64,000 nucleotides of DNA from Flaccisagitta enflata (GCA_965153355.1 OZ231126.1:40982001-41046000); one strand, 5' to 3'. Counted from the stretch's first letter, positions 290 through 64,000 are shown. Notes: a model not told the origin generated them from the letters alone. Program-made: numbers and translations.

Positions 290-3133
290 TTATTCGACCT
301 CATCAGTCTTTAAAAATTTGTAAAGATGACGTAATATTTCATTGTGAGAATTACATAATCCAGTTTGGAAAGAAAGTCGTCGTTTGGCAAAAATAGTAAA
401 AAGATCATTGTAACCCAATCCAGTACGGAAAGTTCGAATGCTTTCCCAATGATTGAACGTAAATATTTTTCGAATAGCATTGTTAAGAGCAGAATTGCAT
501 TTTGACATTTCTGAAGAAGAAAACTCCTTAACATCAGATGCGTAACTTAGACTAGGGACGCAGCACGTATACAACAAATGCATTAGTACAGTTTCACTCC
601 CGTAGGTAAAAGAATTAAAGATAGAATTGAAAGATGAATAGAAATTCCTTAGGTCGTTTCGGGGACTAAATGATAGGTTTTTTCCCGAAACAATTATTGC
701 ACCCAAGTATCTCCATTCTTTAACAAACTGAATAGGTTCACCATTCAACGTTGTAGAGCACGGAGGATTATTATGATTTTTTCCAAAAAACATTGATTTA
801 CTTTTTTTCGGGTTGAAAGAAAGACAATATTCAGAGCAATAATCAACACAGATATCGAGCATTTTTTGCATGGCCTTTCTGGATGGTGCAATTAAACATA
901 AGTCATCCGCGAAGAGCAGTGACCCCGTAAAAATATGATCGACATAGCAACCAATTCCCTTTTTTCTTAATAACTTAACAAGATCGTCAATGTACACCGT
1001 AAAGAGTTTTGGGCTTATGACGCCGCCTTGTTTGACCCCGGAAGGAACAGAGTAAGGGTTACTAAAAGCGCTTTGCCATTTACAGCGGTTTTCCATATTC
1101 GAGTACCAGTATATCAGCAAGTTGATGTAACAAAGAGGAACATTACGCTCAATCAATTTTAGAAATAAACCTCGATGAGAAATCTTATCGAAAGCCTTAG
1201 AACAATCTAAGAACGTGACAATAGTGCTTGATCCGTGCTTGGAGAAATAATCTACAGTAGACCGTAAAACATATAAAGCATGGCTACAGGAATGTTTTCT
1301 TTTAAATCCAAATTGTAAATTATCAGTTTGAAGAAAAGAATCCATTTTTAGAATAAGCAAGTTTTCTAAAAGTTGAGAAAAGATATTCGAGAGTGTAACA
1401 GGTCGGTAATTACTAGAATCATTTATATCACCATCTCTGTCTTTAACAACTGGAGTAACAGTGCCGTTCAAGAATGCACAAGGAACATAATTGTGTTGAA
1501 CCAAACCATTGAAAAGTATATTCAAATGAATGGCAAGTTTAGGACTACCAAGGAAAATATGTTGACTACGAACAAATCCTCCGGTTGCTTTACCTAATTT
1601 CAATTTACTTAACGACGTAATCATATCATTCCATGAAAAGTAAAATTGACCGAGATCGTCATTACCATGCAATTTCGTGTATTGGTTATGAGCATCAGAA
1701 AACCGTTTATCTAAGTTTGAATGAGCTTCCGTTTTAGGTGCATTATAAACATTGCTAAATGTGTTTTTGAAAGAATCCGAAATTTGTTGTTCATCTACAA
1801 AGCCATCAATACGACAAACATTTTCACTATTAGCATTCGTAGAATTAAAACGTTTCCAAAAAGTATTGTAATCATGAGAAGCTAAAGCATCGTTTAGATC
1901 ATCATTTACTTCCTTATTCGCATCTTTTTTTGCTCTTCTGACAGCAATTTTGTAATTGTAATGAGACTTCTGTTTTTCACAAAATATGGGCCCGGATCTA
2001 GGACAGCCTGCTAATTTCCACAATTCACAAGAATCAATACTTTTTTGCTTCAAGTCAGTAAGCCCATCAGACCAAAAATGCCGTGCAACGCCATGTTTTT
2101 TGCGCGGAAGTGTTAAATCAGCCTTGATAATAGCATTACAAATATCGTGAAAATATGATTCAAGAGTATGACAATGCTGAGAAACATTACATGTAGAGCT
2201 ACCATGTAAAACAGTTTGGGGAATCGAAATTGAATTCAAATTATTTTCCATAGACTGTTCGTAACATTTGATTTCATCTTCATTTAATGAGTTCCAAGGA
2301 ATATAAGAGGTGGTGGATTTTTGTTTTTTGCTAAACATTTGGCATGCAATGTTCAAGTTCAATTCAACGGGAGAATGATCACTAACATTATTACCGTAAT
2401 GTCGTATACATGGATTAGAGATCAGTGGGGAAAGTGATTCACTTATCAAAATACCGTCAATCAAGGAGTAAGAATTTCTCTTTGGTTCACATCTAGTGTA
2501 ATCAACCATTGGATCAAATGCAGGATTAAGATTGAGAGCTGAAATCAGACCAAATTTTTCCATTAAGTCGTGAATAATTGGAGTGAAGGGATGAGATGGG
2601 TCAAAGATATTACAGTTCATATCCATTAGTAGAATAAATCGACAGTTACTATTTGTTGAAAGAATAGAATCTATGTAACCAACAGTATCATGGTAAAGTA
2701 ACAATTGAGTATCCATATTTCTTGTATCGTGAAAAGGTAAATAGGCATTAATCAGTAATATCTCACCTTGTTCAGAATTCAGTTTCATAACAGAGACACG
2801 ATCATGCTTATATTTGTGAATTGGAGTCAGAGCAAAATTAAGGGATTTGCTAAAAACAAAACCTGTGCCTCCATATGGGCGGCCTTTATGAACAGAAGAT
2901 GCAGTTTTTTCTTTCATTGCAGAAATACCATATCCATCGTAATTAGGATGAATACTACTCAATCTATTAACACCCAAATGCTTACGAAAAGATGGTTTCA
3001 ACCAGTGTTCTTGCACAGCAAAAATTCCATATTCTTCATGATCACATTGATGATAAATGAAATCCTTACTTCCCGTGAATCCGTTGATGTTGTGGGAAGA
3101 TAATTTGATTGAGATGGTATCCGAGTCAGACAT
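290..3133 (-). CDS. LINE ORF2: apurinic-like endonuclease plus reverse transcriptase, 947 aa
   Basis: Endonuclease motifs HNING, VQEHW, GRPYGG, NAYLP, IDGILIS, SDHSP. RT motifs YRPVTL, QFGFK, FLDCSKAFD, GVKQGGVISPKLF, FADD, RYLG. No RNase H domain seen. Confidence 0.96.
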   Translation of the reverse strand: MSDSDTISIKLSSHNINGFTGSKDFIYHQCDHEEYGIFAVQEHWLKPSFRKHLGVNRLSSIHPNYDGYGISAMKEKTASSVHKGRPYGGTGFVFSKSLNFALTPIHKYKHDRVSVMKLNSEQGEILLINAYLPFHDTRNMDTQLLLYHDTVGYIDSILSTNSNCRFILLMDMNCNIFDPSHPFTPIIHDLMEKFGLISALNLNPAFDPMVDYTRCEPKRNSYSLIDGILISESLSPLISNPCIRHYGNNVSDHSPVELNLNIACQMFSKKQKSTTSYIPWNSLNEDEIKCYEQSMENNLNSISIPQTVLHGSSTCNVSQHCHTLESYFHDICNAIIKADLTLPRKKHGVARHFWSDGLTDLKQKSIDSCELWKLAGCPRSGPIFCEKQKSHYNYKIAVRRAKKDANKEVNDDLNDALASHDYNTFWKRFNSTNANSENVCRIDGFVDEQQISDSFKNTFSNVYNAPKTEAHSNLDKRFSDAHNQYTKLHGNDDLGQFYFSWNDMITSLSKLKLGKATGGFVRSQHIFLGSPKLAIHLNILFNGLVQHNYVPCAFLNGTVTPVVKDRDGDINDSSNYRPVTLSNIFSQLLENLLILKMDSFLQTDNLQFGFKRKHSCSHALYVLRSTVDYFSKHGSSTIVTFLDCSKAFDKISHRGLFLKLIERNVPLCYINLLIYWYSNMENRCKWQSAFSNPYSVPSGVKQGGVISPKLFTVYIDDLVKLLRKKGIGCYVDHIFTGSLLFADDLCLIAPSRKAMQKMLDICVDYCSEYCLSFNPKKSKSMFFGKNHNNPPCSTTLNGEPIQFVKEWRYLGAIIVSGKNLSFSPRNDLRNFYSSFNSIFNSFTYGSETVLMHLLYTCCVPSLSYASDVKEFSSSEMSKCNSALNNAIRKIFTFNHWESIRTFRTGLGYNDLFTIFAKRRLSFQTGLCNSHNEILRHLYKFLKTDEVE

Positions 3134-4496
3134 TGTCCTGGTCCTGTCTGGAGGTTACTCCATCATCCGTTTGACGGCGAGGGCCAAAGAAGTGACGGAT
3201 GGTTATCCCCTTTGGCCAGAATTCCTCGTCTTCAATCTTCTCCAGGTCCTGTTTTTTGATGACGAGTTTGTAAGATTGGAAAGCGTCATGTTTTGTTGTC
3301 AGTTGTTCGAGACTGACGACGTCGACGCCTTTTGTATCCTGAACGTATTGTCGGAGTTCGTCGACGGTGGTGCCGTTGGCTATTCGACCAACATATTTGG
3401 CCACCGTCATATCAACACCTCTGATCGAGACGAGACCATTGCTGACGCTTTTTCCAATGATCACTTTTGCTCGTGAGGAATCGCGACGCCGCTGTTGCTG
3501 TCCTTGTTGTTGTGGATGCTGTTGGCGGCGTCCTTGCTGCTGGGGCCGTTTTGAGCTGAGAGCCCCAGCCCAATCCCTCGACGCCTTTGCCGCCGATGGG
3601 ACGCCGATGGGCGCGACAAACGATGGAAAGGAGCCGGGTGCAGTGACCGGCGCCACAGGAGACCGAGTTGAGTCGGAGGATGAAGATGAGTTCTCACGGG
3701 CATGACCATCTGGCGAAGATGGTGCATCAGCGGCTGCCGACGCTACTGCCGCCGAAACTTCCGGCGCTGCCGACGCTGCCGACGCTGCCGACGCTGCCGA
3801 CGCTGCCGACGCTGCCGATGAAGACTCCGGGCCCAATGAATCGACTGAAGCCACCAACGTCTCCGTTAAGTTATTGGCAGGAAACGCTGAGAGAGTTGAC
3901 TCCGTTTGAGCCGCGGAATTTGACGCTGCAGGAGCCGAAACCGACAAGGACTCTGCCCGTAATGGCAGAGACTTTCTTGGCGACGAGAGATGCTCTGGTA
4001 GAAGTTTCTTTCTAGTCGGCGTTAATGGTTGCCGCGTATCCACTCGAAGATTATTTTCAAATGAAAATTTTAGGTCGTCTTTGGTAGCCGCAGTCGTTTT
4101 AAGCGTTTTAATGGACCGGCTCACGTTTTGAACAGAAGCGAGAATTTGTTCAAGCGTCGCAGAGCCGTCTTTTCCGTCGACAACACGTGGAATACGTGAC
4201 AGATCAGCCGCGACAAACACTGGCGCAATTGCATCATCATGATCAAGAGCCATCATTTTTTCAATGACGTCAGACAAATCCTTCGTGCGTTGGTCCGTCC
4301 CACGCCGAGGTGGAGCGCGGAGGCCGATGGCGTCAAAAAACTTCATTTTTTCAAATTCAACTTCTTCAGATGAGTAGAATTTTCCACATGTTTCAACGAT
4401 AATATCCTTTGGTGTTGAGAGGATTTGGTTTTGTACGAAACAGAGCAGTTCAGAAATAATCAGTTTCCCACTGAGTGGCTTGGCCATTGTGGCCAA
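3126..4496 (-). CDS. LINE ORF1 nucleic-acid-binding protein, 456 aa
   Basis: N-terminal ELLCFVQN...FVAADLSRIP block of the kind seen in invertebrate CR1/L2-group ORF1s, a low-complexity linker with (SAA)n from a 9-bp repeat, and a C-terminal RRM-like block (YVGRI...FQSYKL...FWPKGITIRHF). Overlaps ORF2 by 8 nt (ATGTCTGA). Confidence 0.88.
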   Translation of the reverse strand: MATMAKPLSGKLIISELLCFVQNQILSTPKDIIVETCGKFYSSEEVEFEKMKFFDAIGLRAPPRRGTDQRTKDLSDVIEKMMALDHDDAIAPVFVAADLSRIPRVVDGKDGSATLEQILASVQNVSRSIKTLKTTAATKDDLKFSFENNLRVDTRQPLTPTRKKLLPEHLSSPRKSLPLRAESLSVSAPAASNSAAQTESTLSAFPANNLTETLVASVDSLGPESSSAASAASAASAASAASAAPEVSAAVASAAADAPSSPDGHARENSSSSSDSTRSPVAPVTAPGSFPSFVAPIGVPSAAKASRDWAGALSSKRPQQQGRRQQHPQQQGQQQRRRDSSRAKVIIGKSVSNGLVSIRGVDMTVAKYVGRIANGTTVDELRQYVQDTKGVDVVSLEQLTTKHDAFQSYKLVIKKQDLEKIEDEEFWPKGITIRHFFGPRRQTDDGVTSRQDQDNV

Positions 4497-4951
4497 AGCC
4501 CGAGGTCAAAATAATCAAGACTTCGAGTGATTCAGTCAGGGTTTTTTTTCGGTTAAGAGAGAAAATAATCAGGACGACGGAGAGAGGTGTTGCTCCGACG
4601 AGGTCCAATGAGTTTTTTTTGAATATAAACATATAAACATGCGATTGGTAGAAGGGGAGCGCAGCAGAGAAAATATTTTTTGAAAACAGCCTCAGATAGT
4701 ATTTTGTATCAAGAAATACACGCGTTCTCGCACGCCTTTTCAGCAAAACAAGGCCATTTACAAAGACCCCCTTTCGCGAATGGGCGGGCAAGGGCAGAAT
4801 AGCAAGCAACGCACATATTTTATTATGGTTACCGACGGACGAATTGACGGACGGGTGGAAAGACCAACCGACCGAGAGTGTGTGTGTGTGTGTCTGTCTG
4901 TCTATCTGTCAGTCTATATGTCTGTCTTCCAATGTATGCAAGTGTGTGAGC

Positions 4952-5056
<105 letters not shown>

Positions 5057-5083
5057 GAAAGAGAGAGAGATCGCAGCGCATAC

Positions 5084-7472
5084 TTGATATGCTCCAAACT
5101 CGGCCACTGTTGCTGAGTACAGTGGATATTGAGGAATGGGAATCATGACTCCGACGGGACGATCGGCCTTCTGATCGGGAAGCACCAACTTCATTATCGT
5201 TCGAATACCGTCAGATGCACCTGAATTGAGTAGCAAACGAAAGAACATAACTATTGCGGGTAGGCCTGTCATCACGATAAAAGTCTAACAAGTGACGCGG
5301 TGTCACAATATCGTTGCGGGCGGGAGGGCAGGGGCTTCCTACCAAATCCACACTCTACAACCATACTCAACAGGTCGCCCAAGGGCAAAATGTGGTCAGC
5401 CATACCCGTTGCCCTGCTTTGCATGATTGTGAAATGGAGTGAAAGGAAGCAGGGCAGTGGCCCCAAAGGGGCCGAAGTCCTGTAGAACACAGGGGGACTT
5501 TCATTCATCATTCCGTTCATCCGTCCGTCCCTCCGTTCCCCCCAGGACCTCCTCGGCCTTAAAACCGCCCTCTCAGGACTGAAATCTACCCTCTCAAGCC
5601 TTGAATCTGTGAGGGCAGATTTCAGGCCTGAGAAGGCAGATTTCAGGCCTGAGAGGGCAGATTCAAGGCCTGAGAGGGCAGATTTCAGGCCCGAGAGAGT
5701 TAATTTTAGGCCTGAGAGGGCAGATTCCAGGCCTGAGAGGGCCTGGGGGGACAAATGGACGAACGGACGAGCGGAATGACGAATGAAAGTCCCCCTGTGT
5801 TCGTCAGGACTTCGTCCCCTTCGGAGCCGCTGTCCGCAACTAAGAATTGTGAACTCCAGCGAAATTGAAACTTCTGCACTTTTTGGGCAGCGGCCCCGAA
5901 GGGGACGAAGTCCTGTAGAACACAGGGGGACTATCGTTCGTCCGTCCGTCCGTCCATCCGTTCGTCCGTTCGTCCGTTCGTCCCCCCCCATCAGGCCCCT
6001 CAGACCCCACATCCAGCCTCTCAGGTCTCAAATCCGGCCTCTCAGGCCTCAAATCCGGCATCTCAGGCCTCAAATCCAGCCTCTCCGGCCTCAAATCCGG
6101 CCTCTCAGGCCTCAAATCCAGCCTCTCAGGCCACAAATCTGGTCTCTCAGGTCTCAAATACAGCCTGAAAGGCCTTAAACCTGGCCTCTCAGGCCTCAAA
6201 TTAACCCTCTCAGGCCTCAAACTAGCCCTCTCAGGCCACAAATGAGCCCTCTCAGGCCTTAAATTAGGGCTCACAGGCCTCAAAGTAGCGCTGTCAGGCT
6301 TCAAATCAGACCTGATTGCCATTTAAGCCTTGGGAAAGCCTTCAGACTCTTGAAGGCCTTCAATCAGTGCACTATAGCATCTCATCAATGTTGTCAGGCA
6401 GGACGAACGAAAGTCCCCCTGTGTTCTACAGGACTTCGTCCCCTTTGGGGCCGCTGCCCTGCTTCCCCTCACACAAATTCACAATCATGCAAAGCAGGGC
6501 AACGGGTATCGCTGACCACATATTGCCCTTGGGCGACCTGTTTTTAAACTGTTACGTTAACTCACCTGTTGTCATGAAAATGTCCTCCCAATTGGCAGGA
6601 ATGCCACCATCTCTTTCCTCGATGTACTTGGCAACGTCGCGTCGAACCAACTCAATTCCAGGGCTCGCTTAAAACAGAGAAACAATCGCTTATTTCAATG
6701 ATACTTTGGGAGATACATTCATTTGTCAGAGGAGAACAAATGCTCGAAATGCACAGAAAAGAAAAAAAAAAGAAAAGAAAAAAAAAAGAAAAGAAAAAAA
6801 AAAAAAGAAAAGAAAAAAAAAAAAAAAGAAAACCTGAACCTTATTGTCTCATGCGGATGGGCAGGAGCAGTGAACCTCATAGAGTGCTTCAAGATCGACC
6901 GGCAAGCGGCTTATACCAAGGAAGAAAACAAAAACAAACCAGCAATTTGATTACTCACCTGTGTAACTACCGACGCTTTGTCCCTGGCAAGCTTTGAGAA
7001 GCTGCTGCGACCTGTCGACGACGTCTTTGGGGTAGTTGGCTACGTCGACGATTTGCGGATCAACGCAGGCGGCGATCGTTTGCCGGATAAACGTGTTGGG
7101 CTTCATCCCGACAGCGTGACAATCGCCGATGTTGGCGCGAGTCACGGAGGCGAAAGGCTTATTCGCACCCTACAAGGTATGAAGATGATGGTCGAGTTTA
7201 GAGAAAAGTGCCCACAAATGCCATGTCAATCGTCAGGCAGTAGAACGTGATAGATTTCATCCTTACGATTCTGTTAGCGAGAAGTCAAAGGCCTACATCG
7301 TCATAGAAGATAGGTTGGTAATGTATAAAGACCAACAGCAACAACACTCATTGAAGTCAGAGAGGCAAACGGCTTCTTAGGAAATCTTACATGGTAAACA
7401 ACAACAACAACAACAACAACGCTTAGTGAAGTCAGAGAGGCAAACTGCGTTTTTGGATATCATCATGAAGTC

Positions 7473-28298: not shown

Positions 28299-29320
28299 TC
28301 AGGAAGGAAACCACTTGCAACAGCGAGAAATGGCCTTGACCCAAATGCGGTACGTTGCCATAATTTTGTCCCTTTCTTGCGTGGATCGTGGAATGAATAC
28401 AGCTTTTGTCTTGCGCAACTGGCTCACTTCTTCGGTATCCTAGGGACGAAAATGGAGACCTAAACGTTACTTATGGGCGTTACGTAGTGCGACTGGGCGG
28501 TCGGACCAGTTTATATACGTAGATGCAATGACACGACAAATTTCCACGGAAGAAAGGAAAGAGGTCAACACATAAGGGACACCATAGAGGGGACAGAGTG
28601 AGAAAGCAAAATAAGGTTGAACAAAAATCAGTGATAGAACTGCTATGAGCTTTACCACCTTCATCCGTCTTCGTTACCTTCCAGACGCCGGCGGCGATTC
28701 CAGCGAGAAATGCGGCGCCAAGAGCCGACGAGTCGCAGTCGTCGGGGAAGTCGAGCGAGAGTCCCGTCAAGTCGGCGACCAGTTGCATCACAAATCGATT
28801 CCGCGACACGCCGCCGTCGACACGGATCAACCGCAGTCTGAATCAAAGAATGAAAGCTGTAGATCTTTTTTACTTTTTCTCCTTTACCTCTTTTGTTCTT
28901 TTGGTTTTTTGTTTGTTTGTTCTTTTGTTCTTTTGTTCGTTTGTTCTTTTGTTCGTTTGTTCTTTTGTTCGTTTGTTCATTTGTCCTTTTTTCTTTTGTT
29001 TTTTCTTTTGTTATTTTGTTTTTTCTCCTTTTGTGTTTCATTCTTTTTATCTTTTCTTGTTTTGTTTTTCTTTCTTTTCTTTTGTTCGTTCTTTCTTGTT
29101 CTTTCTTCATCTATTCTTCACTTCTTTTGTTTTTTTTCTTCTCCTTTTGCTATTCTTTTTTTCTTCCATTCTCTTTCGTTCTTTTGTTTTTATTTCTGTT
29201 CTTTTGTTAGTTCTTTGTTCTATTGTTTTACGTTCTTTTGCTCTATGTTCTTTCGTTCTATGTCTTTCTTTCCATGTCTTTCATAGTCTGTATGTGTCTG
29301 TCTGTCTGTCGGTCTGTCTA

Positions 29321-29414
<94 letters not shown>

Positions 29415-32400
29415 TGTCATTTCTGTCCTATTATCTTTCCTTTTTCTAGAAGCGTTCTTACTGCGACGTATCGACGGCTGGATCAGAAGTGGCCAAAGAG
29501 TATATGTGGTACATTCTAAAGGCGAGGGACTCTAGCAGAGCGCGGACGATTTGCGCTTTGGTGGTGGTGGCTGTGATCCCGATGATTCCGGTGCAAGCGT
29601 CATCGTCATTGATTGGAGCCTACAGATTGGGGAGAGGGGCGGGGAAGAAAATGCATTGAGGATGGACTTTTTTGAGAACAGGTATTGGAGTTGTCTAAGT
29701 GGGTCGGTACAAAGAAGGCAAGTTGTTAGATAGGCAAATTGTAGAAAATCACAAGAATATTGAAATGAGATTTAGAAGTTAAACCAACCCCGGCCCCTTC
29801 GTGATGGAAAAGCAACGCTGAGTTTCTGTCATAATCTCAGTGTCTCAACCTTGGATACGCTTTACCAGCAAACAGCATGACTGGATTTCTCTCAGAATAG
29901 TTAGCCATCAGACTTTATTTCCTCACTTGAATGCCGCTGAATGCGGGAATGAAGCAGATGCCTCCGGAATCTGCGGCCGAGTTGGCGATCATCTCCGATT
30001 CTTCGGGCGAATCGAAGAATCCTGCCGAGATGCCCCACAGAATCGTCGTGCCAGTGTCCATCGAACATCCCTCGGCCGAGTAACAAATCAACTCCTTGAT
30101 CTTCCAACCTGGATGTGAAATACAACCGAGAAGTGGATATGGCAGGGGGGTGGGTAGTTCAATTATCTAGATCTTAGACGTTTCAATGCTTTACAGTTTG
30201 TTAGATTAGAAACCATGAATCCGATTCTTCTGAAATCGGAATGATTATTGACATGTTCGGTGACATGGTAGCAAAATGTTTGGATAGCCTTTTTGGGCCA
30301 TTGGCTACCCTCCTCCTACTCTCAACCCGAAAATCGTTCTTACCAATGATAGGATAGAGTCCGGCAATGGTGGCTAAGGGTTGTAAGGCGGTGTTGACGT
30401 TGCAGAAGGTGCCGGTGCCAAAAGTGGCTTTCACGTCACCTTTGTGAAATCCGCATTGACCAAACATGGCCGCCTGCTGATCACCGACAGCGGCGTTGAC
30501 GGGAATGGCAGCGCCAAAGACTTGGGCGTCCGTGTGGCAAAAGGGTCCCGTCGTATCGCGCACTTCCGGCCAAATGTGGTGAGGCAAGCCTACTAACGTC
30601 ATCATGATCCAACTAAAACGACCAAAAGGATCCATGGTGAGAATTTCTTAACTTTCACTAGGCAATTCTAGTTCCTTCAACGCTCATTTAAAATTGAATA
30701 CCTATAGTCAAGGATGAAAGGGTCGTACAATCCTGTGGCAGAAGCGCAGGAATAATCAGTGGCGTGGACCCTTCCTCTGACAATTTCCACAGTAACCAGG
30801 TCTCGATGCAACCGAATTTCACTTTTTGATCCCTGAGAATTGACTCAAGATGGGAAATGGCATTTCTTTGTTACTTCATATCAACTAGACCATGACCGAT
30901 CGATGTTTACGCTTATGGGCGACTATAAACATGAAGCTTGGTTAGTCCAAAGGCAGTGACCTAATCTGAAAGCAATGACCTAATTTCTTACTTCTAAGCA
31001 ATGACCTTATTTCTAATTCCTAGCAATAACCTAATTTCTTACTTTTAAAGTATGCTTTCCAGCTTTGGCAAATGGGAATAGCAATACCTGATTCGGTCAC
31101 GAAGCCGTTGATTGTTGTCGATCATCCATCTCAGTCTAACTCCGACTTGGGCCAACGAAAACTCCATATTGGACGCCAAAAGGAACTTTTTGACGCGGGA
31201 TATTTGAAACAAAGCAAAGGCCACCCAGTGGTATGCCTGCAACGCCATCAGTCTCAATCGTTTAATCACAGTTAAACCCCGCTCTTACGGACCCGCCACT
31301 AACGAAATTCCAGTCTCACTGTTTATTTCCTTTTTGGCTATAATAGATTTTCACCTATAGGTCACCTATAGGTCACCTATAGGTCACCTATAGGTCACCT
31401 ATAGGTCCTACAACAAATAATTCAGGGGTGTATATTATTGAGTCGCTTTTGATTCCCCCCCCCCTTTGATTTTCTTCCCTGCGTCGCATGTTTATATCCA
31501 TGATTTTCTTCTCCATATAGCAATGAAACTATGTAGTTAAGGTTTAAATAGCGTTAAATTGTGTTTTACTAATTGAGTTTTATGATTTGGTACTGTCAAA
31601 AGTTATATTTTCCCCAAATTTCCTTTTTTTCTCTTTTTTTCCCCTTTTGATTTCCCTCCCCATCTCCAGACCCTTTTATTTCCCTCCCCCCCCCCCACCG
31701 ATATAAATTGACTTACTCTGCCGACATAACATCATTTAAAATGTCCACGCAACCTTGAACAAGTTCACCTTGAGCGAAAGAGAGCGATTCCAGTCCTTGA
31801 CGTATTGAATGGCTCTTTGGTCATTGCATACGATGAGATTGTGGAATGGTTCCCCAGTTTCCGAGTCCCAAGTCGTGAAAGTGTTCCGCTGAGTAGAAAT
31901 ACCGATGGAGGTAATTTCAGTCGCGCTAACCTGTGTTTAGGGTTAGAGGTAAGATGCTATCGTCGAAACAATCAGTCAATCAACTGAACACTAGATGATA
32001 ACATTCGGTATGCAAGCTAGTAGGCTTTAATAATTGCCCAAATAAGTCAGTTTTAGAATGTATTTATCATAAATTTTATGTTCAAATGTGCCAGATGGCT
32101 AAGAGTAATTGTGTGGGCGTGGGCATTTTTTATTTCGTAATGGGGCGAAATGAAAGATCAAAAGTTATCAATCAAATCATCTTAGTTGCTTAGTCGACCT
32201 GGGCATTCGACAAGGCGTTCCTGTAGCAAGTTTGGAACTGACGCCAAAGTTGCTCGGGATCGATTTCAACTCGACTGGGCTCGGGTCGCAGGATGACGAT
32301 TGGTTCCGAATGACGACCCAAAATATGACCTTTGCTGTTGTAAATCAAACACTTCATCAGCGTCGTGCCTTTTGGATTATGGAAGAACAAAATCAGGCAT

Positions 32401-59036: not shown

Positions 59037-62000
59037 TTAAGTAGTGAGTTTCGGAGGCATGTAGTTGCTTTTTGCGCCAAGAATGGGGGCACTGAACAAA
59101 AATACAAAAGAAATATTTGAAGGGGTGAGTCAGAGCTTGCGGTGTCCATGTCATGTTTCTCATCTTCTGTGTGCGTGGTCAGTCTCTCAGAATCAGTGTC
59201 TCTTTGTCTAGCTGTGTTTATATGTGTGCTCATGTGTGTGATTTTGTGTGTTTTTCTCCGTGTGTTTTTCTCTTTGTGTGTTTCTCTGTGTGTTTCTCTG
59301 TGTGTTTCTCTGTGGGTGTTTCCTTGCGTGTGTTTCTCTGCGTGTATTTATTTATTTCGCTACACCTCTTGTTTTTCCTATCAGTACATCTCTTTTTTAC
59401 TATCAGTATGTGCTTCTGTCAGTGTGTCCTATCAGTGTGTCCTTCTATCAGTGTGTCCTTCTATCAGTGTGTCCTTCTATCAGTGTGTCCTTCTATCAGT
59501 GTGTCCTTCTATCAGTGTGTCCTTCTATCAGTGTGTCCTTCTATCAGTGTGTCCATCGATCAGTGTGTCCCTCTTTAAGTGTATCTTTATCAGCATGTCC
59601 CTCTCTCACTGTGTCCCTCTCTCACTGTGTCCCACTGTCAGTGTGTCCCTCTGTCAGTGTGTTCCTCTCTTAGTGTGTCCCTTTCTCAGTATTCCTCTCT
59701 CAGTGTGTCCCTCCATCAATGTGTCCTTCTTTCAGCGTGTCCTTTCAGTGTGTGTTTTTATAAATCTATCTTTCTATCAGTGTGTATATCTATTAGTGAG
59801 TATTCCTATCAGTGTGTCTTTATATCAATGTGCCATTCTATCAGTGTGCCGTTCTATCAGTGTGTCCTATCAGTGTGTCCTTCTATCAGTGTATCCTTCT
59901 ATCAGTGTGTCCTATCAATGTGTCCCCCTATCAGTGTGTTCTTCTATCAATGTGTTCTTCTATCAATGTGTCCTTCTATCAATGTATCCTTCTATCAGTG
60001 TGTCCTTCTATTAGTGTGTCCTTCTATCAGTGTGTCCTTCTATCAGTGTGTCCTTCTATCAGTGTGTCCTTCTATCAGTGTGTCCTTCTATCAGTGTGTC
60101 CTTCTATCAGTGTGTCCTTCTATCAATGTGTCCTTCTATCAGTGTGTCCTTCTATCAGTGTGTCCTTCCATCAGTGTGTCCTTCTATCAAAGTGTCCTTC
60201 CATCAGTGCGTCCTTATATCAATGTGTCCTTCCATCAGTGTGTCCTTCCATCAGTGTGTCCTTCCATCAGTGTGTCCTTCTATCAAAGTGTCCTTCCATC
60301 AGTGTGTCCTTATATTAATGTGTCCTTCCATCAGTGTGTCCTTCCATCAGTGTGTCCTTCCATCAGTGTGTCCTTCTATCAATGTGTCCTTCTATCAATG
60401 TGTCCTTCCATCAGTGTGTCCTTCTATCAATATGTCCTATCAATGTGTCCTTCTATCAGTGTGTGTTTCCATCAGTGTGTGTTTCTATCAGCGTAACTTT
60501 CTATCAGCGTGTATTTCTATCAGCGTATCTTTCTATCAGTGTGCCATTCTATCAGTGTGCCATTCTATCAGTGTGCCATTCTATCAGTGTGCCAGTCTAT
60601 CAGCGTGCCAGTCTATCAGCGTGCCATTCTGTCAGTGTGCCATTCTATCAGTGTGCCATTCTATCAGCGTGCCATTCTGTCAGTGTGCCATTCTATCAGT
60701 GTGACATTCTATCAGTGTGACATTCTTTCAGTGTGCCACTCTAGATTCTATCAGCCCGAAACTTTCTATAAGCCCGTGACTTTCTACCGATCAGTTTGTC
60801 TTTCTTTCGGTCAGTCTGAGTCTGTCCCTTTCTTTCTCTGCTCACGAGGTATCGGGGAAGCAGTTGAAGGGCTCTTCTAGCGCGGAGACTGTTCCGTCAT
60901 CGTCAACGTTGACGGGATAACGAAGCAGTTTGACTTTTTCTTTCTCTCCGTCTTCGAAAAAGGCGTCAGGATCGTCCTCTTTGTACCGGTTCCAGTACTC
61001 GGTCGAAATCTCCTTCACCTGCGAGACAATGTGGAACCGTGACATCTTAGCTCAGATTATGGTTGGGTCAGATCATGATTACAAAGCATCCGGTCAAGGT
61101 TAGGTCAGTTAGGTCAGTTTGTTCCAATTATCGGGATTTCGCGAAAGAAAAACCCCGCAAACTCACGTCAAATCCAAAAATTTGAATGAAAGAAAGTAAT
61201 TTCGCAGTTACAGAACAGAGAGAGACCGTAACAGAGTACACTTTTTTTTTTTTTATAAGAACGTCATTTTTTGAGCAAGCCTTCAATGTTCTTAAATTTT
61301 CAGCAGCTTCAAGGCTTGAACGTTCTTAAATTGTTCTTAATTCAAACGCACTTTTTAGCCTTCAATTAAGAACGTTCTTAATTAGTTTTAAGTTGGTCAT
61401 TAAGGAGAAAATGAAGGAAAATGTCAATGAAACAATAAAGAAGTAGATTTAAACATTTTAAATGAATTAAGATCAATGAAAGTAGAAAAATATATGCTAT
61501 ATAAAGTGAGACATGATTTGCTGAACAGAAAAGATATGGAGTCTGTCCATTTACAAAGAACAATTGATTAAAAAAAAACAGAAAAAAAATGTTCTTAGAT
61601 TTTTAAGATTTCAAGCCTAATGTTCTTAATTTTTTCAAGAAATGAAGCCTTCCAATGTTCTTAGCATGTTCTTAAATTTTTGACGATTTGAAGCCTAACG
61701 TTCTTATAAACTTGGTTCTTATAAAAAAAAATAAGTGTAACTCATATAGCCTGCATAAAGTAATCGTCAAACCTTTTCCACGCATTCTCTCGATCCTGGG
61801 TTATCAATTTCCTCGTAACATTCTCCCAAATGTGCCGACCAAAGCGCTTTTCTGAATGTATGGATGGATCCACGTGGATTTCCGTCTTCACTTTCTTCCG
61901 TGACGTAGTCAGGCTGCCAGGCACCGATCGCAATCTCACTGTCACGATTACCACCTGAGTGAAAAAGAAATAATGTAGGTATCATCTTTTTTTACGCGAA

Positions 62001-63633
62001 GTAAATTTGTATGGGATTTTTCAAAATATATGTAGATATTCTTTATTAATGAAAGTTAAATTTATGTGGCAAAACGACAGACCAAATGACGGCCAAACGC
62101 GGCTAAGAATGAATACTACGCGACTCTACAAACAGCTATCTTCGACCATCAGTTGTTCCGTCGTTTAGTCTATTGTTCTGCCACATTTTACTTTTAATAC
62201 TTTGTATTTGGGTTCACTGCTCCTGGCCAAATACTCTTGTGACCTCAAACTCAGCCCCTGTCTACCCACACGCGACTGAAGTAGCCGTGTATCTGGCTTT
62301 GTTGTTACAGGAAAATGTTTCAGGATTGAATACATATTTCTCATCCATCTCAGTGTCAGATATAAATGTTTTGGGTATCAGAGGGGATGTCTAGTTTGTC
62401 TACACATTGTAAGCAAACAACTCTTTACCTAACGATCTTTGGTTGATGTTTGCCGATCCAACAATGATGTAGTCGTCATCGACGATAAGCATTTTACAGT
62501 GGACGTAGATAGGATGACGCATCGTGTAGCGAACCTGCACGAAAAAAAAGAAAAGAAATTGGTTTGTATTTGGAACAACAGCCAATTTTTACTCATTGAT
62601 TAATCAAATCTTTAATTTCTGCTTGGTCGTTAAAACTCAATGATAATCTTCTTGCCCACTGACTCTTTAACGCTGTTAACGCTTTTTAAATGATAACACA
62701 AATTCATGTTCGCCCAAAAATTTCTTTTTGATTTAACGGTATTCAACTTGTAAGAAAATCCGGGTTCAACATCCTTAAGGTTTCGATATCAAATCACATT
62801 CAGTCATTAATTCTTTCATTCATTCATTCATTCATTCATTCATTCATTCATTCATTCATTCATTCATTCATTCATTTCTCGATGCTCACAAGTTCGGCTT
62901 TGGTGTTTTCTGGCGGCGGAGCGATATCTTCCGGAATGTCGTTTGCACTTTCGCGTTTAGCCAAACAAAAGAACATCAAATAGTCCGTCGGCGTCCCCTC
63001 GGCTCCCCACTCGGCAATCGCATTTGCCACGATCGTGTACATCATTTGCATTGTCCTGATAAAGTTGAAACATTGAGTTTAAAATGTTTCTAGGCTCATC
63101 GGAAAGATGGCATTGGAAACGAGCCAACGATCGCGTCATTGCTTTCATCAATCCCATCATTCTTATCAATCATAACTTTTCATTTTAAGAATAGAAACAT
63201 TGTAAAAATCATCACGCGTAGTTTCATAGCACAATCATCCTCATCATCGTCACCATCATCCTCATCATCTTCCTCATCACCATCCTCATCGTCAACATCA
63301 TCCTCATTGTCATCATCGTCATTATCATCATCTTCATCGCCATCGTCATCCTCGTCATCATCCATCAACAATGTCATTGTCAGCATTCCTTAGGTCGCGT
63401 GAACATGACTGTTTTTTCAGTTTGTTAGCCTGTGAGCCGGTCGTTGTGGAGAGATAAAAAAAGACTCAATTCTTTGTTCACCTGTGTTGCCAGTAAAGGA
63501 TTTCTTGTAGGGCTGCTGTCGTCGGGTCTCCTTCGGGGAACATGGGAATGACGATGTAAGCGGCAAAAGGCTCTCCAGCGGCGATTTTGTCCCGGACCTT
63601 GAAGGCGATCTCGGCTGGCACAGTGTGGTTCGC
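59037..63633 (-). CDS. Phospholipase D, plant PLD-alpha/delta-like, 3' part (277 aa); 5' exons lie beyond the window end
   Basis: GT-AG exons in consistent phase: 63633-63482, 63055-62890, 62534-62429, 61954-61773, 61018-60846, 59091-59037. Translation [57 protein letters not shown]...[14 protein letters not shown]...[42 protein letters not shown]...LLRYPVNV...[22 protein letters not shown]. The second HKD motif is intact. Confidence 0.93.
59400..60740. repeat. 16-bp minisatellite ATCAGTGTGTCCTTCT filling the last PLD intron
   Basis: About 1.3 kb tandem array, which explains the [16 protein letters not shown] pseudo-ORFs in all three frames. Confidence 0.95.
61239..61737. mobile_element. MITE with CAC termini and TA TSD in a PLD intron
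   Basis: TA|CACTTTTTTTTTTTTATAAGAAC ... GTTCTTATAAAAAAAAATAAGTG|TA. Confidence 0.75.
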
Positions 63634-64000
63634 CTAAAATCATGAGGGAAAAGAAAGACACTTAAACACAGCTGCTGAATTGATGATATAATTAAGCAGG
63701 AATTGGGCTTTGGGATGAGATGAACAATCAAGAGACGCGTGGCTACAATATTGACGTGGGCGGGTGGACAGGGGCGTACAACCCTTCTACTTTTCACACA
63801 CACAAACCATCAGATCTGCGGCATCAAAAATGCGTGTTTTTGACCAATGCAATGGGCGAAAAAAAAACATCATAAAGAGTCGCTAGTCTGCGACTTAAAA
63901 ACGATGCAACGGCCAACTGACTCCAACGGCCAACCAGGAAGGCACGACAAGCTGCGCTCAGGTTCCCTGGTGTTATGAAACAAGGCCGGATACACGGCAA

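What the first reader, a model, noticed from the sequence alone, without database searches (positions are those of the whole stretch)
59037..63633. Plant-type (PLD-alpha/delta-like) phospholipase D in an animal-like genome
Seen: [52 protein letters not shown] and the C-terminus [22 protein letters not shown]. Established, from my recall of the families: these match plant C2-domain PLDs (IPMWPEG, NINQRS, ...YLPPILTT end) and not animal PX-PH PLD1/2 (NINDRS). The gene has canonical introns filled with host repeats and neighbours GK5, so contamination is unlikely. Inference: an ancient eukaryotic paralogue lost from most animals, or a horizontal acquisition. Similar genes may already be annotated in some invertebrates.
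Basis: partly seen in the sequence, partly recalled or inferred. Interest (0 to 1): 0.7.

Follow-up and report, generated by a model that had tools for sequence, protein, structure and literature searches.

The report
Copepod-derived plant-type phospholipase in arrow worm
An arrow worm (chaetognath) carries four working copies of a membrane-lipid-cutting enzyme usually called plant-specific, and its family tree places them among the versions found in copepods, which suggests the predator's ancestor took the gene from its prey.

Summary
The window holds the last 6 exons of an intact, spliced, expressed C2-domain phospholipase D (C2 + two HKD + PLD_C; 791 aa, 815 with an extra 5' exon; all introns GT-AG), not a PX-PH PLD1/2. 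The host is a chaetognath (MedPost Hox with all chaetognath-diagnostic residues, same contig). It has four divergent C2-PLD copies plus an ordinary PLD1/2-type gene. The gene is not plant-derived: C2-PLDs occur in several protists and form a multigene family in crustaceans, already auto-annotated 'PLD alpha 1-like'. The new point is the tree: the four copies form one clade, sister to a copepod clade (100/99), nested inside crustacean C2-PLDs. Crustacean monophyly without the host is rejected (AU p=0.0014 and 0.0003), and a one-residue insertion is shared with that copepod clade. All 16 organism-named relatives among the top 120 hits are crustaceans. Best reading (0.65): one ancient copepod-to-chaetognath transfer, then duplication and intron gain. 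Rival (0.25): old paralogue lost in most animals. Most relatives are unnamed and other animal genomes were not searched, so absence elsewhere is not shown. I found neither point in print, nor in this scan's earlier notes.

The parts
63482..63633 (-). C2-PLD coding exon 13 of 18 (residues 515-564; IPMFPEG motif)
   Evidence: covered by spliced RNA contigs, joint to the next exon skips 426 nt
62890..63055 (-). coding exon 14 (residues 565-620)
   Evidence: same RNA contig continues across both flanking introns (table 8)
62429..62534 (-). coding exon 15: second HKD motif (H632, K634, D639) and GSANINQRS
   Evidence: joint skipping 474 nt
61773..61954 (-). coding exon 16 (RDSEIA region, start of PLD_C)
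   Evidence: joint skipping 754 nt in 3 runs
60846..61018 (-). coding exon 17: PLD_C domain; carries the one-residue insertion shared with the copepod sister clade
59037..59091 (-). last coding exon 18 with stop codon
   Evidence: loose ends of RNA contigs at 60846 read this exon (table 7)
59092..60845 (-). last intron (1754 nt), mostly a short-unit tandem array
63634..64000 (-). part of intron 12; exons 1-12 (C2 domain, first HKD H316/K318/D323) and an extra 5' exon lie beyond the window at G000:C1:41046197-41074055

Best explanation
An active C2-domain phospholipase D that entered the chaetognath lineage once, long ago, from a copepod lineage, then duplicated to four copies and gained most of its introns in the new host. 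How it works (inferred from the family, not assayed): the N-terminal C2 domain binds Ca2+ and docks the enzyme on anionic membranes; the two HKD motifs form one active site that cuts phosphatidylcholine or phosphatidylethanolamine through a phosphohistidine intermediate and releases phosphatidic acid. This gives the animal a Ca2+-gated route to phosphatidic acid beside its ordinary PLD1/2-type enzyme. Shown: gene model, splicing, domain make-up, intact catalytic residues, host phylum, tree position. Inferred: activity, Ca2+ control, transfer and its direction, feeding as the route.
For: Host phylum: locus L034 on the same contig has K3, A14, R18, Y20, V21, Q6, LTRRRR 26-31 and E59 (read by eye), the residues listed for chaetognath MedPost in PMC5431905. 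Tree: host plus named copepods 100/99, crustaceans plus host 100/98 (21 rows, LG+C20 PMSF); four host copies one clade 100/99, host plus copepod clade 99/96 (25 rows); same grouping 0.999 in a 245-row FastTree. AU rejects crustaceans without host: p=0.00137 (10 named rows), p=0.000308 (15 rows). Indel: spacing of 18 residues between two C-terminal anchors in 6 of 7 host-clade rows and 64 of 79 sister-clade rows, against 0 of 11 and 0 of 38 in the other crustacean-clade groups and 5 of 110 outside. Site patterns: host+copepod 16, copepod+malacostracan 5, host+malacostracan 3. Sister clade is copepod: Lepeophtheirus and Caligus are named in it, and the calanoid spliced leader of PMC4664967 starts transcript L072 (and in part L068) inside it and L083, L085, L086, L126 in the next clade out. 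Range: 16 of the best 120 hits carry an organism name and all 16 are crustaceans; the only named animals in a second search are two crustaceans. Introns: host copies share few (window gene 4 of 17 with the C3 copy, 3 of 17 with the second C1 copy); 6 of 8 copepod-type genomic loci have 0-1 (2 of those 6 are partial). Function: both HKD intact in the window gene and the C6 copy; D23, D37, D89, D91, D97 in the C2 loops; orthologue model pLDDT 91, TM 0.89 to plant PLDalpha1 against 0.55 to human PLD1.
Against: A C2-PLD labelled Clim_evm (I read this as the holozoan Corallochytrium, from recall) falls next to the crustacean clade in the 52-row quick tree (SH-aLRT 89; unresolved), so the family may be old in the animal stem. 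PMC8406910 reports a PLD orthogroup in Artemia and a tardigrade; its type could not be determined. Two of 8 copepod intron positions coincide with host introns, which fits common descent as well as DNA transfer. A gene tree cannot separate transfer from hidden paralogy. The C3 and second C1 copies share 9 introns, so some gain was early. Rows for the careful trees (21 and 25 of 245) were chosen after seeing the first tree, each tree is one search, and the 52-row careful search did not finish.
Confidence: 0.65

Rival explanations
1. Vertical inheritance with hidden paralogy: C2-PLD was in the holozoan ancestor, duplicated before the protostome split, and one paralogue survived only in chaetognaths and copepods while others survived only in crustaceans.
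For: The family is old and patchy: named members in Entosiphon, Leptophrys, Porphyridium, Chara and a Clim_evm entry. Malacostracans hold several deep paralogues. Two intron positions are shared with copepod-type loci. Possible Artemia and tardigrade PLD family. Gnathiferans lost many gene families (PMC12460157), so patchy retention is common.
Against: Needs many independent losses (other spiralians, insects, chelicerates, nematodes, deuterostomes, and this paralogue in malacostracans). No non-crustacean animal among the named hits. A calanoid paralogue clade lies outside host+sister clade with moderate support, so the host branches among copepod paralogues. Few introns are shared among the host copies.
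Confidence: 0.25
2. Transfer in another direction or from a third party: chaetognath to copepod, or both from an unsampled protist or parasite lineage.
For: Host and copepod clades are sisters, and monophyly of the sister clade without the host is weak (0.675; 87/87), so direction is not fixed at that node alone. Many rows are unnamed.
Against: The pair is nested inside crustacean diversity (100/98; AU). Crustaceans hold far more lineages of the family than the host does.
Confidence: 0.07
3. Direct acquisition from a plant or alga (the plain reading of 'plant-type').
For: Best solved structure is Arabidopsis PLDalpha1; motifs match plant C2-PLDs.
Against: Identity to copepods 49-52% against 39-41% to Chara and angiosperm rows; never groups with plants; no shared intron with plant alpha-type loci.
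Confidence: 0.02
4. Contamination of the assembly by copepod prey DNA.
For: Closest named relatives are copepods.
Against: 17 introns with host repeats, four copies on three chromosome-scale contigs, a 112.6-Mb contig that also holds MedPost, only about 50% identity to copepods, and 84-85% orthologues of two different copies in other samples.
Confidence: 0.01

Closest known systems
Plant C2-PLDs (PLD alpha, beta, gamma, delta, epsilon); Arabidopsis PLDalpha1, PDB 6KZ8/6KZ9
   Same: C2 + two HKD + PLD_C architecture, length about 800 aa, 38% identity and TM 0.89 over the whole chain for the orthologue model.
   Different: Outside the plant clades, so no member of a plant class; 17 introns against the 3-exon alpha and 10-exon delta plans (10.1101/807719); found in an animal although that paper calls the subfamily plant-specific.
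Crustacean C2-PLDs auto-annotated 'phospholipase D alpha 1-like / gamma 1-like' (Lepeophtheirus, Caligus, Homarus, Penaeus, Hyalella and others)
   Same: Same architecture, 44-50% identity to the named rows aligned, one clade with the host copies. The copepod subclade shares a C-terminal insertion.
   Different: Host is a spiralian. Copepod-type genomic copies are mostly intron-poor, host copies have about 15-17 introns. I found no paper that treats these crustacean genes as a family.
Animal PX-PH PLD1/PLD2
   Same: Two-HKD catalytic core.
   Different: No PX or PH domain, C2 instead; NINQRS against NINDRS; a separate PLD1/2-type gene exists at G000:C8 near 47.87-47.88 Mb (its PX-PH part was not recovered).
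Animal-to-animal transfer of a functional gene, e.g. fish type II antifreeze protein (recalled, from no call)
   Same: Intron-containing functional gene with a tree that conflicts with the species tree.
   Different: Here between phyla, ancient (about 50% identity), followed by duplication; no near-identical introns remain to prove it.

Membership tests
C2-PLD subfamily | N-terminal C2 domain, no PX/PH | tested here: met
   Pfam C2 at 7-114 of orthologue P0005, no PX/PH hit; exons mapped in the host at 71-91% identity
C2-PLD subfamily | Two HxKxxxxD motifs | tested here: met
   H316-K318-D323 and H632-K634-D639
C2-PLD subfamily | PLD_C (PF12357) C-terminal domain | tested here: met
   E=5e-17 on P0002, 99% identical to the host C-terminal half
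C2-PLD subfamily | Fold of plant PLDalpha1 over the whole chain | tested here: met
   Orthologue model, TM 0.89 to 6KZ8; the host's own joined protein was not folded
C2-PLD subfamily | Acidic Ca2+-binding residues in the C2 loops | tested here: inconclusive
   D23, D37, D89, D91, D97 present; their role is assigned by recalled C2 pattern, no ion modelled
C2-PLD subfamily | Ca2+-dependent phospholipid hydrolysis and transphosphatidylation | not testable with these tools
   needs an assay
Plant PLD alpha or delta class | Groups inside the plant class in a tree | tested here: not met
Plant PLD alpha class | Alpha-type intron positions | tested here: not met
   Recurring positions 18/0 and 638/1 in 16 unnamed plant-type loci (rough models) are absent from all host copies; no 10-exon beta/gamma/delta locus was compared
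PX-PH PLD1/2 | PX and PH domains | tested here: not met
Horizontally acquired gene | Integrated in host chromosome, spliced, expressed | tested here: met
Horizontally acquired gene | Nested in donor clade, species-tree constraint rejected | tested here: met
Horizontally acquired gene | Absent from the recipient's relatives (rotifers, other spiralians) | tested here: inconclusive
   no non-crustacean animal among named hits, but most hits unnamed and lists cut at 120
Chaetognatha (host) | MedPost homeodomain with K3, A14, R18, Y20, V21 | tested here: met
   L034 against PMC5431905; one marker only

The most novel reading that the evidence does not exclude
A prey-to-predator gene transfer between animal phyla: an early chaetognath took a copepod C2-PLD, kept it under selection, expanded it to four genes and filled it with introns. 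The crustacean family is itself an undescribed Ca2+-gated phospholipase D branch in animals, so two plankton lineages use a signalling enzyme that textbooks reserve for plants, and more copepod-derived genes may sit in chaetognath genomes.
Probability: 0.6. Interest if true: 0.8.

Novelty: new member of a known kind. Interest (0 to 1): 0.63.

Why it matters
Transfers of working protein genes between animal phyla are rare and usually disputed (my knowledge). This one has a chromosome-scale locus, spliced transcripts, a rejected species-tree constraint, a shared indel and an obvious feeding link, so it makes the idea that predators gain genes from prey testable in a named pair. Separately, it corrects two statements in the papers read: that C2-PLDs are plant-specific (10.1101/807719) and that invertebrate genomes hold a single PLD gene (PMC6435507). 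Copepods, shrimp and sea lice would then have a second, probably Ca2+-controlled source of phosphatidic acid. If the rival is right, it is still an ancient enzyme family lost from most animals.

Tried and rejected
Cuticle domain PF00379 in G000: 0 matches, but the control rang nowhere, so not used to exclude an arthropod host. ESM Atlas: only clusters commonest in Streptophyta; says nothing on animal range. First spliced model of the C6 copy was noise in its 5' half because those exons lay outside the fetched stretch; redone, still rough. Plant intron models used truncated guides and were discarded; those are rough. The 52-row careful tree did not finish in two calls; only its quick tree is cited. 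Rows left out of the 245-row tree: proteins under 560 or over 1120 aa, five isoform or near-duplicate entries and one double-length entry (P0001). Literature: nine searches listed no paper on animal C2-PLDs or on this transfer; one search lists two shrimp transcriptome papers that hold the label 'phospholipase D alpha 1-like' (listing only). PMC12460157 has no 'phospholipase' in its main text and no PLD term in 3 supplement files. The Artemia orthogroup was not found in the 12 of 18 supplement files searched; the other 6 may bear on it. Subscription papers are not covered. Earlier scan notes: none by sequence, one unrelated by words; the look-up by place gave no answer.

Full report
Observation. 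The quoted peptides lie on the minus strand in six exons between 63633 and 59037. The gene runs on beyond the window. Guided by 84-85% identical database proteins (P0004, P0005) I mapped 18 coding exons over G000:C1:41064341-41041037: 791 residues, no internal stop, 17 of 17 introns GT-AG; an independent spliced alignment gave the same exons. A further 5' exon 9.6 kb upstream gives an 815-residue form like P0140/P0142. RNA contigs from 3 of the 4 runs laid (two studies) follow the exons and skip introns of 754, 474 and 426 nt; the fourth run gave no such joint.

What it is. The orthologue has C2, PLDc and PLD_C domains and no PX or PH. It scores E=4e-167 against Arabidopsis PLDalpha1 and 7e-31 against human PLD1, and its model (pLDDT 91) matches PLDalpha1 at TM 0.89. 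Both HKD motifs are intact. The genome holds four such genes: this one, one 1 Mb away on C1, one on C3 and one on C6, 47-57% identical to each other. It also holds a PLD1/2-type gene on C8 and a PLD3/4-like exon on C6 (the PLD3/4 label is from recall). So the C2 enzymes are additions, not replacements.

The host. Of 30 homeobox loci translated, L034 on the same contig shows K3, A14, R18, Y20 and V21, the set that PMC5431905 (passages) gives for chaetognath MedPost, three of them absent from rotifers. That is one marker, but a diagnostic one. Six of 17 introns share repeats with the host's homeobox loci and none with 8 copepod-type loci. Contamination is excluded in practice.

Relatives. Of the best 120 hits (2873 found), 16 carry an organism name; all are crustaceans, 2 copepods and 14 malacostracans, some auto-named 'PLD alpha 1-like'. 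A search from a distant member named two more crustacean rows and otherwise plants, Chara and a red alga. Look-ups named C2-PLDs in Entosiphon, Leptophrys and an entry labelled Clim_evm, which I read from recall as Corallochytrium. The family is thus old and patchy, not plant-specific as 10.1101/807719 states (passages), and invertebrates do not all have a single PLD as PMC6435507 states (passages).

Tree. In a 245-row FastTree the 7 host-clade rows are sister to a 79-row clade (0.999) inside a 135-row clade whose named members are all crustaceans. With LG+C20 PMSF, host plus named copepods has 100/99 and crustaceans plus host 100/98 (21 rows); with 25 rows the four copies are one clade (100/99) and join the copepod clade at 99/96. 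Forcing crustaceans together without the host is rejected (p-AU 0.00137; 0.000308; the second set includes unnamed rows assigned after the first tree). A one-residue C-terminal insertion is in 6 of 7 host-clade and 64 of 79 sister-clade rows, 0 of 49 other crustacean-clade rows and 5 of 110 outside. The calanoid spliced leader of PMC4664967 (passages and Table 1) opens 9 of 79 metagenome loci; of the six placed, L072 and L068 (3' part of the leader only) fall in the sister clade and four in the next clade out. So the host probably branches among copepod paralogues, with moderate support for that deeper node (SH-aLRT 86; 85/91 for one row, unresolved for another).

Introns. The host copies share few positions (4 of 17 and 3 of 17 for this gene; 9 between the C3 and second C1 copies). 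Of 8 copepod-type genomic loci, three have none, three have one, one has two and one has six; 2 of their 8 positions match host introns, and neither recurring plant alpha-type position does. This fits an intron-poor founder that gained introns after duplication. It does not decide between transfer and descent. Lineage-specific tandem duplication is typical of chaetognaths (PMC12460157, passages).

How it works. By the family's established chemistry, the two HKD motifs form one site that hydrolyses structural phospholipids to phosphatidic acid, and the C2 loops bind Ca2+ and membranes (PMC5215601, passages). Five aspartates sit at the expected loop positions, so Ca2+ control is likely. None of this was assayed.

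Verdict. The enzyme is a new member of a known family, already auto-annotated in crustaceans. Its origin is the interesting part. I put 0.65 on one ancient copepod-to-chaetognath transfer (that chaetognaths feed mainly on copepods is my knowledge), 0.25 on hidden paralogy with wide loss, 0.07 on another direction or donor. The main gap is range: most relatives are unnamed, no other animal genome was searched, and PMC8406910 (passages, 12 of 18 supplements) mentions a PLD family in Artemia and a tardigrade whose type I could not determine. Nine literature searches listed no treatment of animal C2-PLDs or of this transfer; PMC9607936 (passages) does not mention animals. Interest 0.63.

Noticed in passing
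G000:C1:95183542-95218360 (L051, L052): About 53 of the 150 homeodomain matches in the genome lie in this 35-kb stretch, many about 250 bp apart, same strand, divergent from each other: a giant multi-homeodomain gene or a dense array.
   Followed up: no
L023/L024, L028/L029, L032/L033, L038/L039/L040: Near-identical homeobox loci in inverted pairs 25-120 kb apart, one also on another contig: recent duplications or assembly duplicates.
   Followed up: no
G000:C1:41074055-41074029: The extra 5' exon gives an N-terminus of the pattern M-N-F-F-K-R; a similar start occurs in copepod proteins of the neighbouring paralogue clade. Possible membrane-targeting basic tip.
   Followed up: partly
window 290-3154 and 3126-4505 (minus strand): Intact LINE-type element: 954-aa endonuclease/reverse transcriptase frame (RVT_1) with an upstream 459-aa frame.
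   Followed up: partly
window 28480-28842 and 30201-30647 (minus strand): Glycerol-kinase-family exons; FGGY_C hit on the first only.
   Followed up: partly
window 4829-5284 (minus strand): Exon resembling alanine aminotransferase by recalled motif; no Pfam hit.
   Followed up: no
L016:8979-9359: NAD-binding (renalase-like by recall) gene 1.6 kb downstream of the C6 PLD copy.
   Followed up: no
protein P0237: Long-branch member of the crustacean clade with C2 and PLD_C but no precomputed PLDc hit: perhaps a catalytically dead C2-PLD.
   Followed up: no
window 59400-60760: Short-unit tandem array fills most of the last PLD intron.
   Followed up: no
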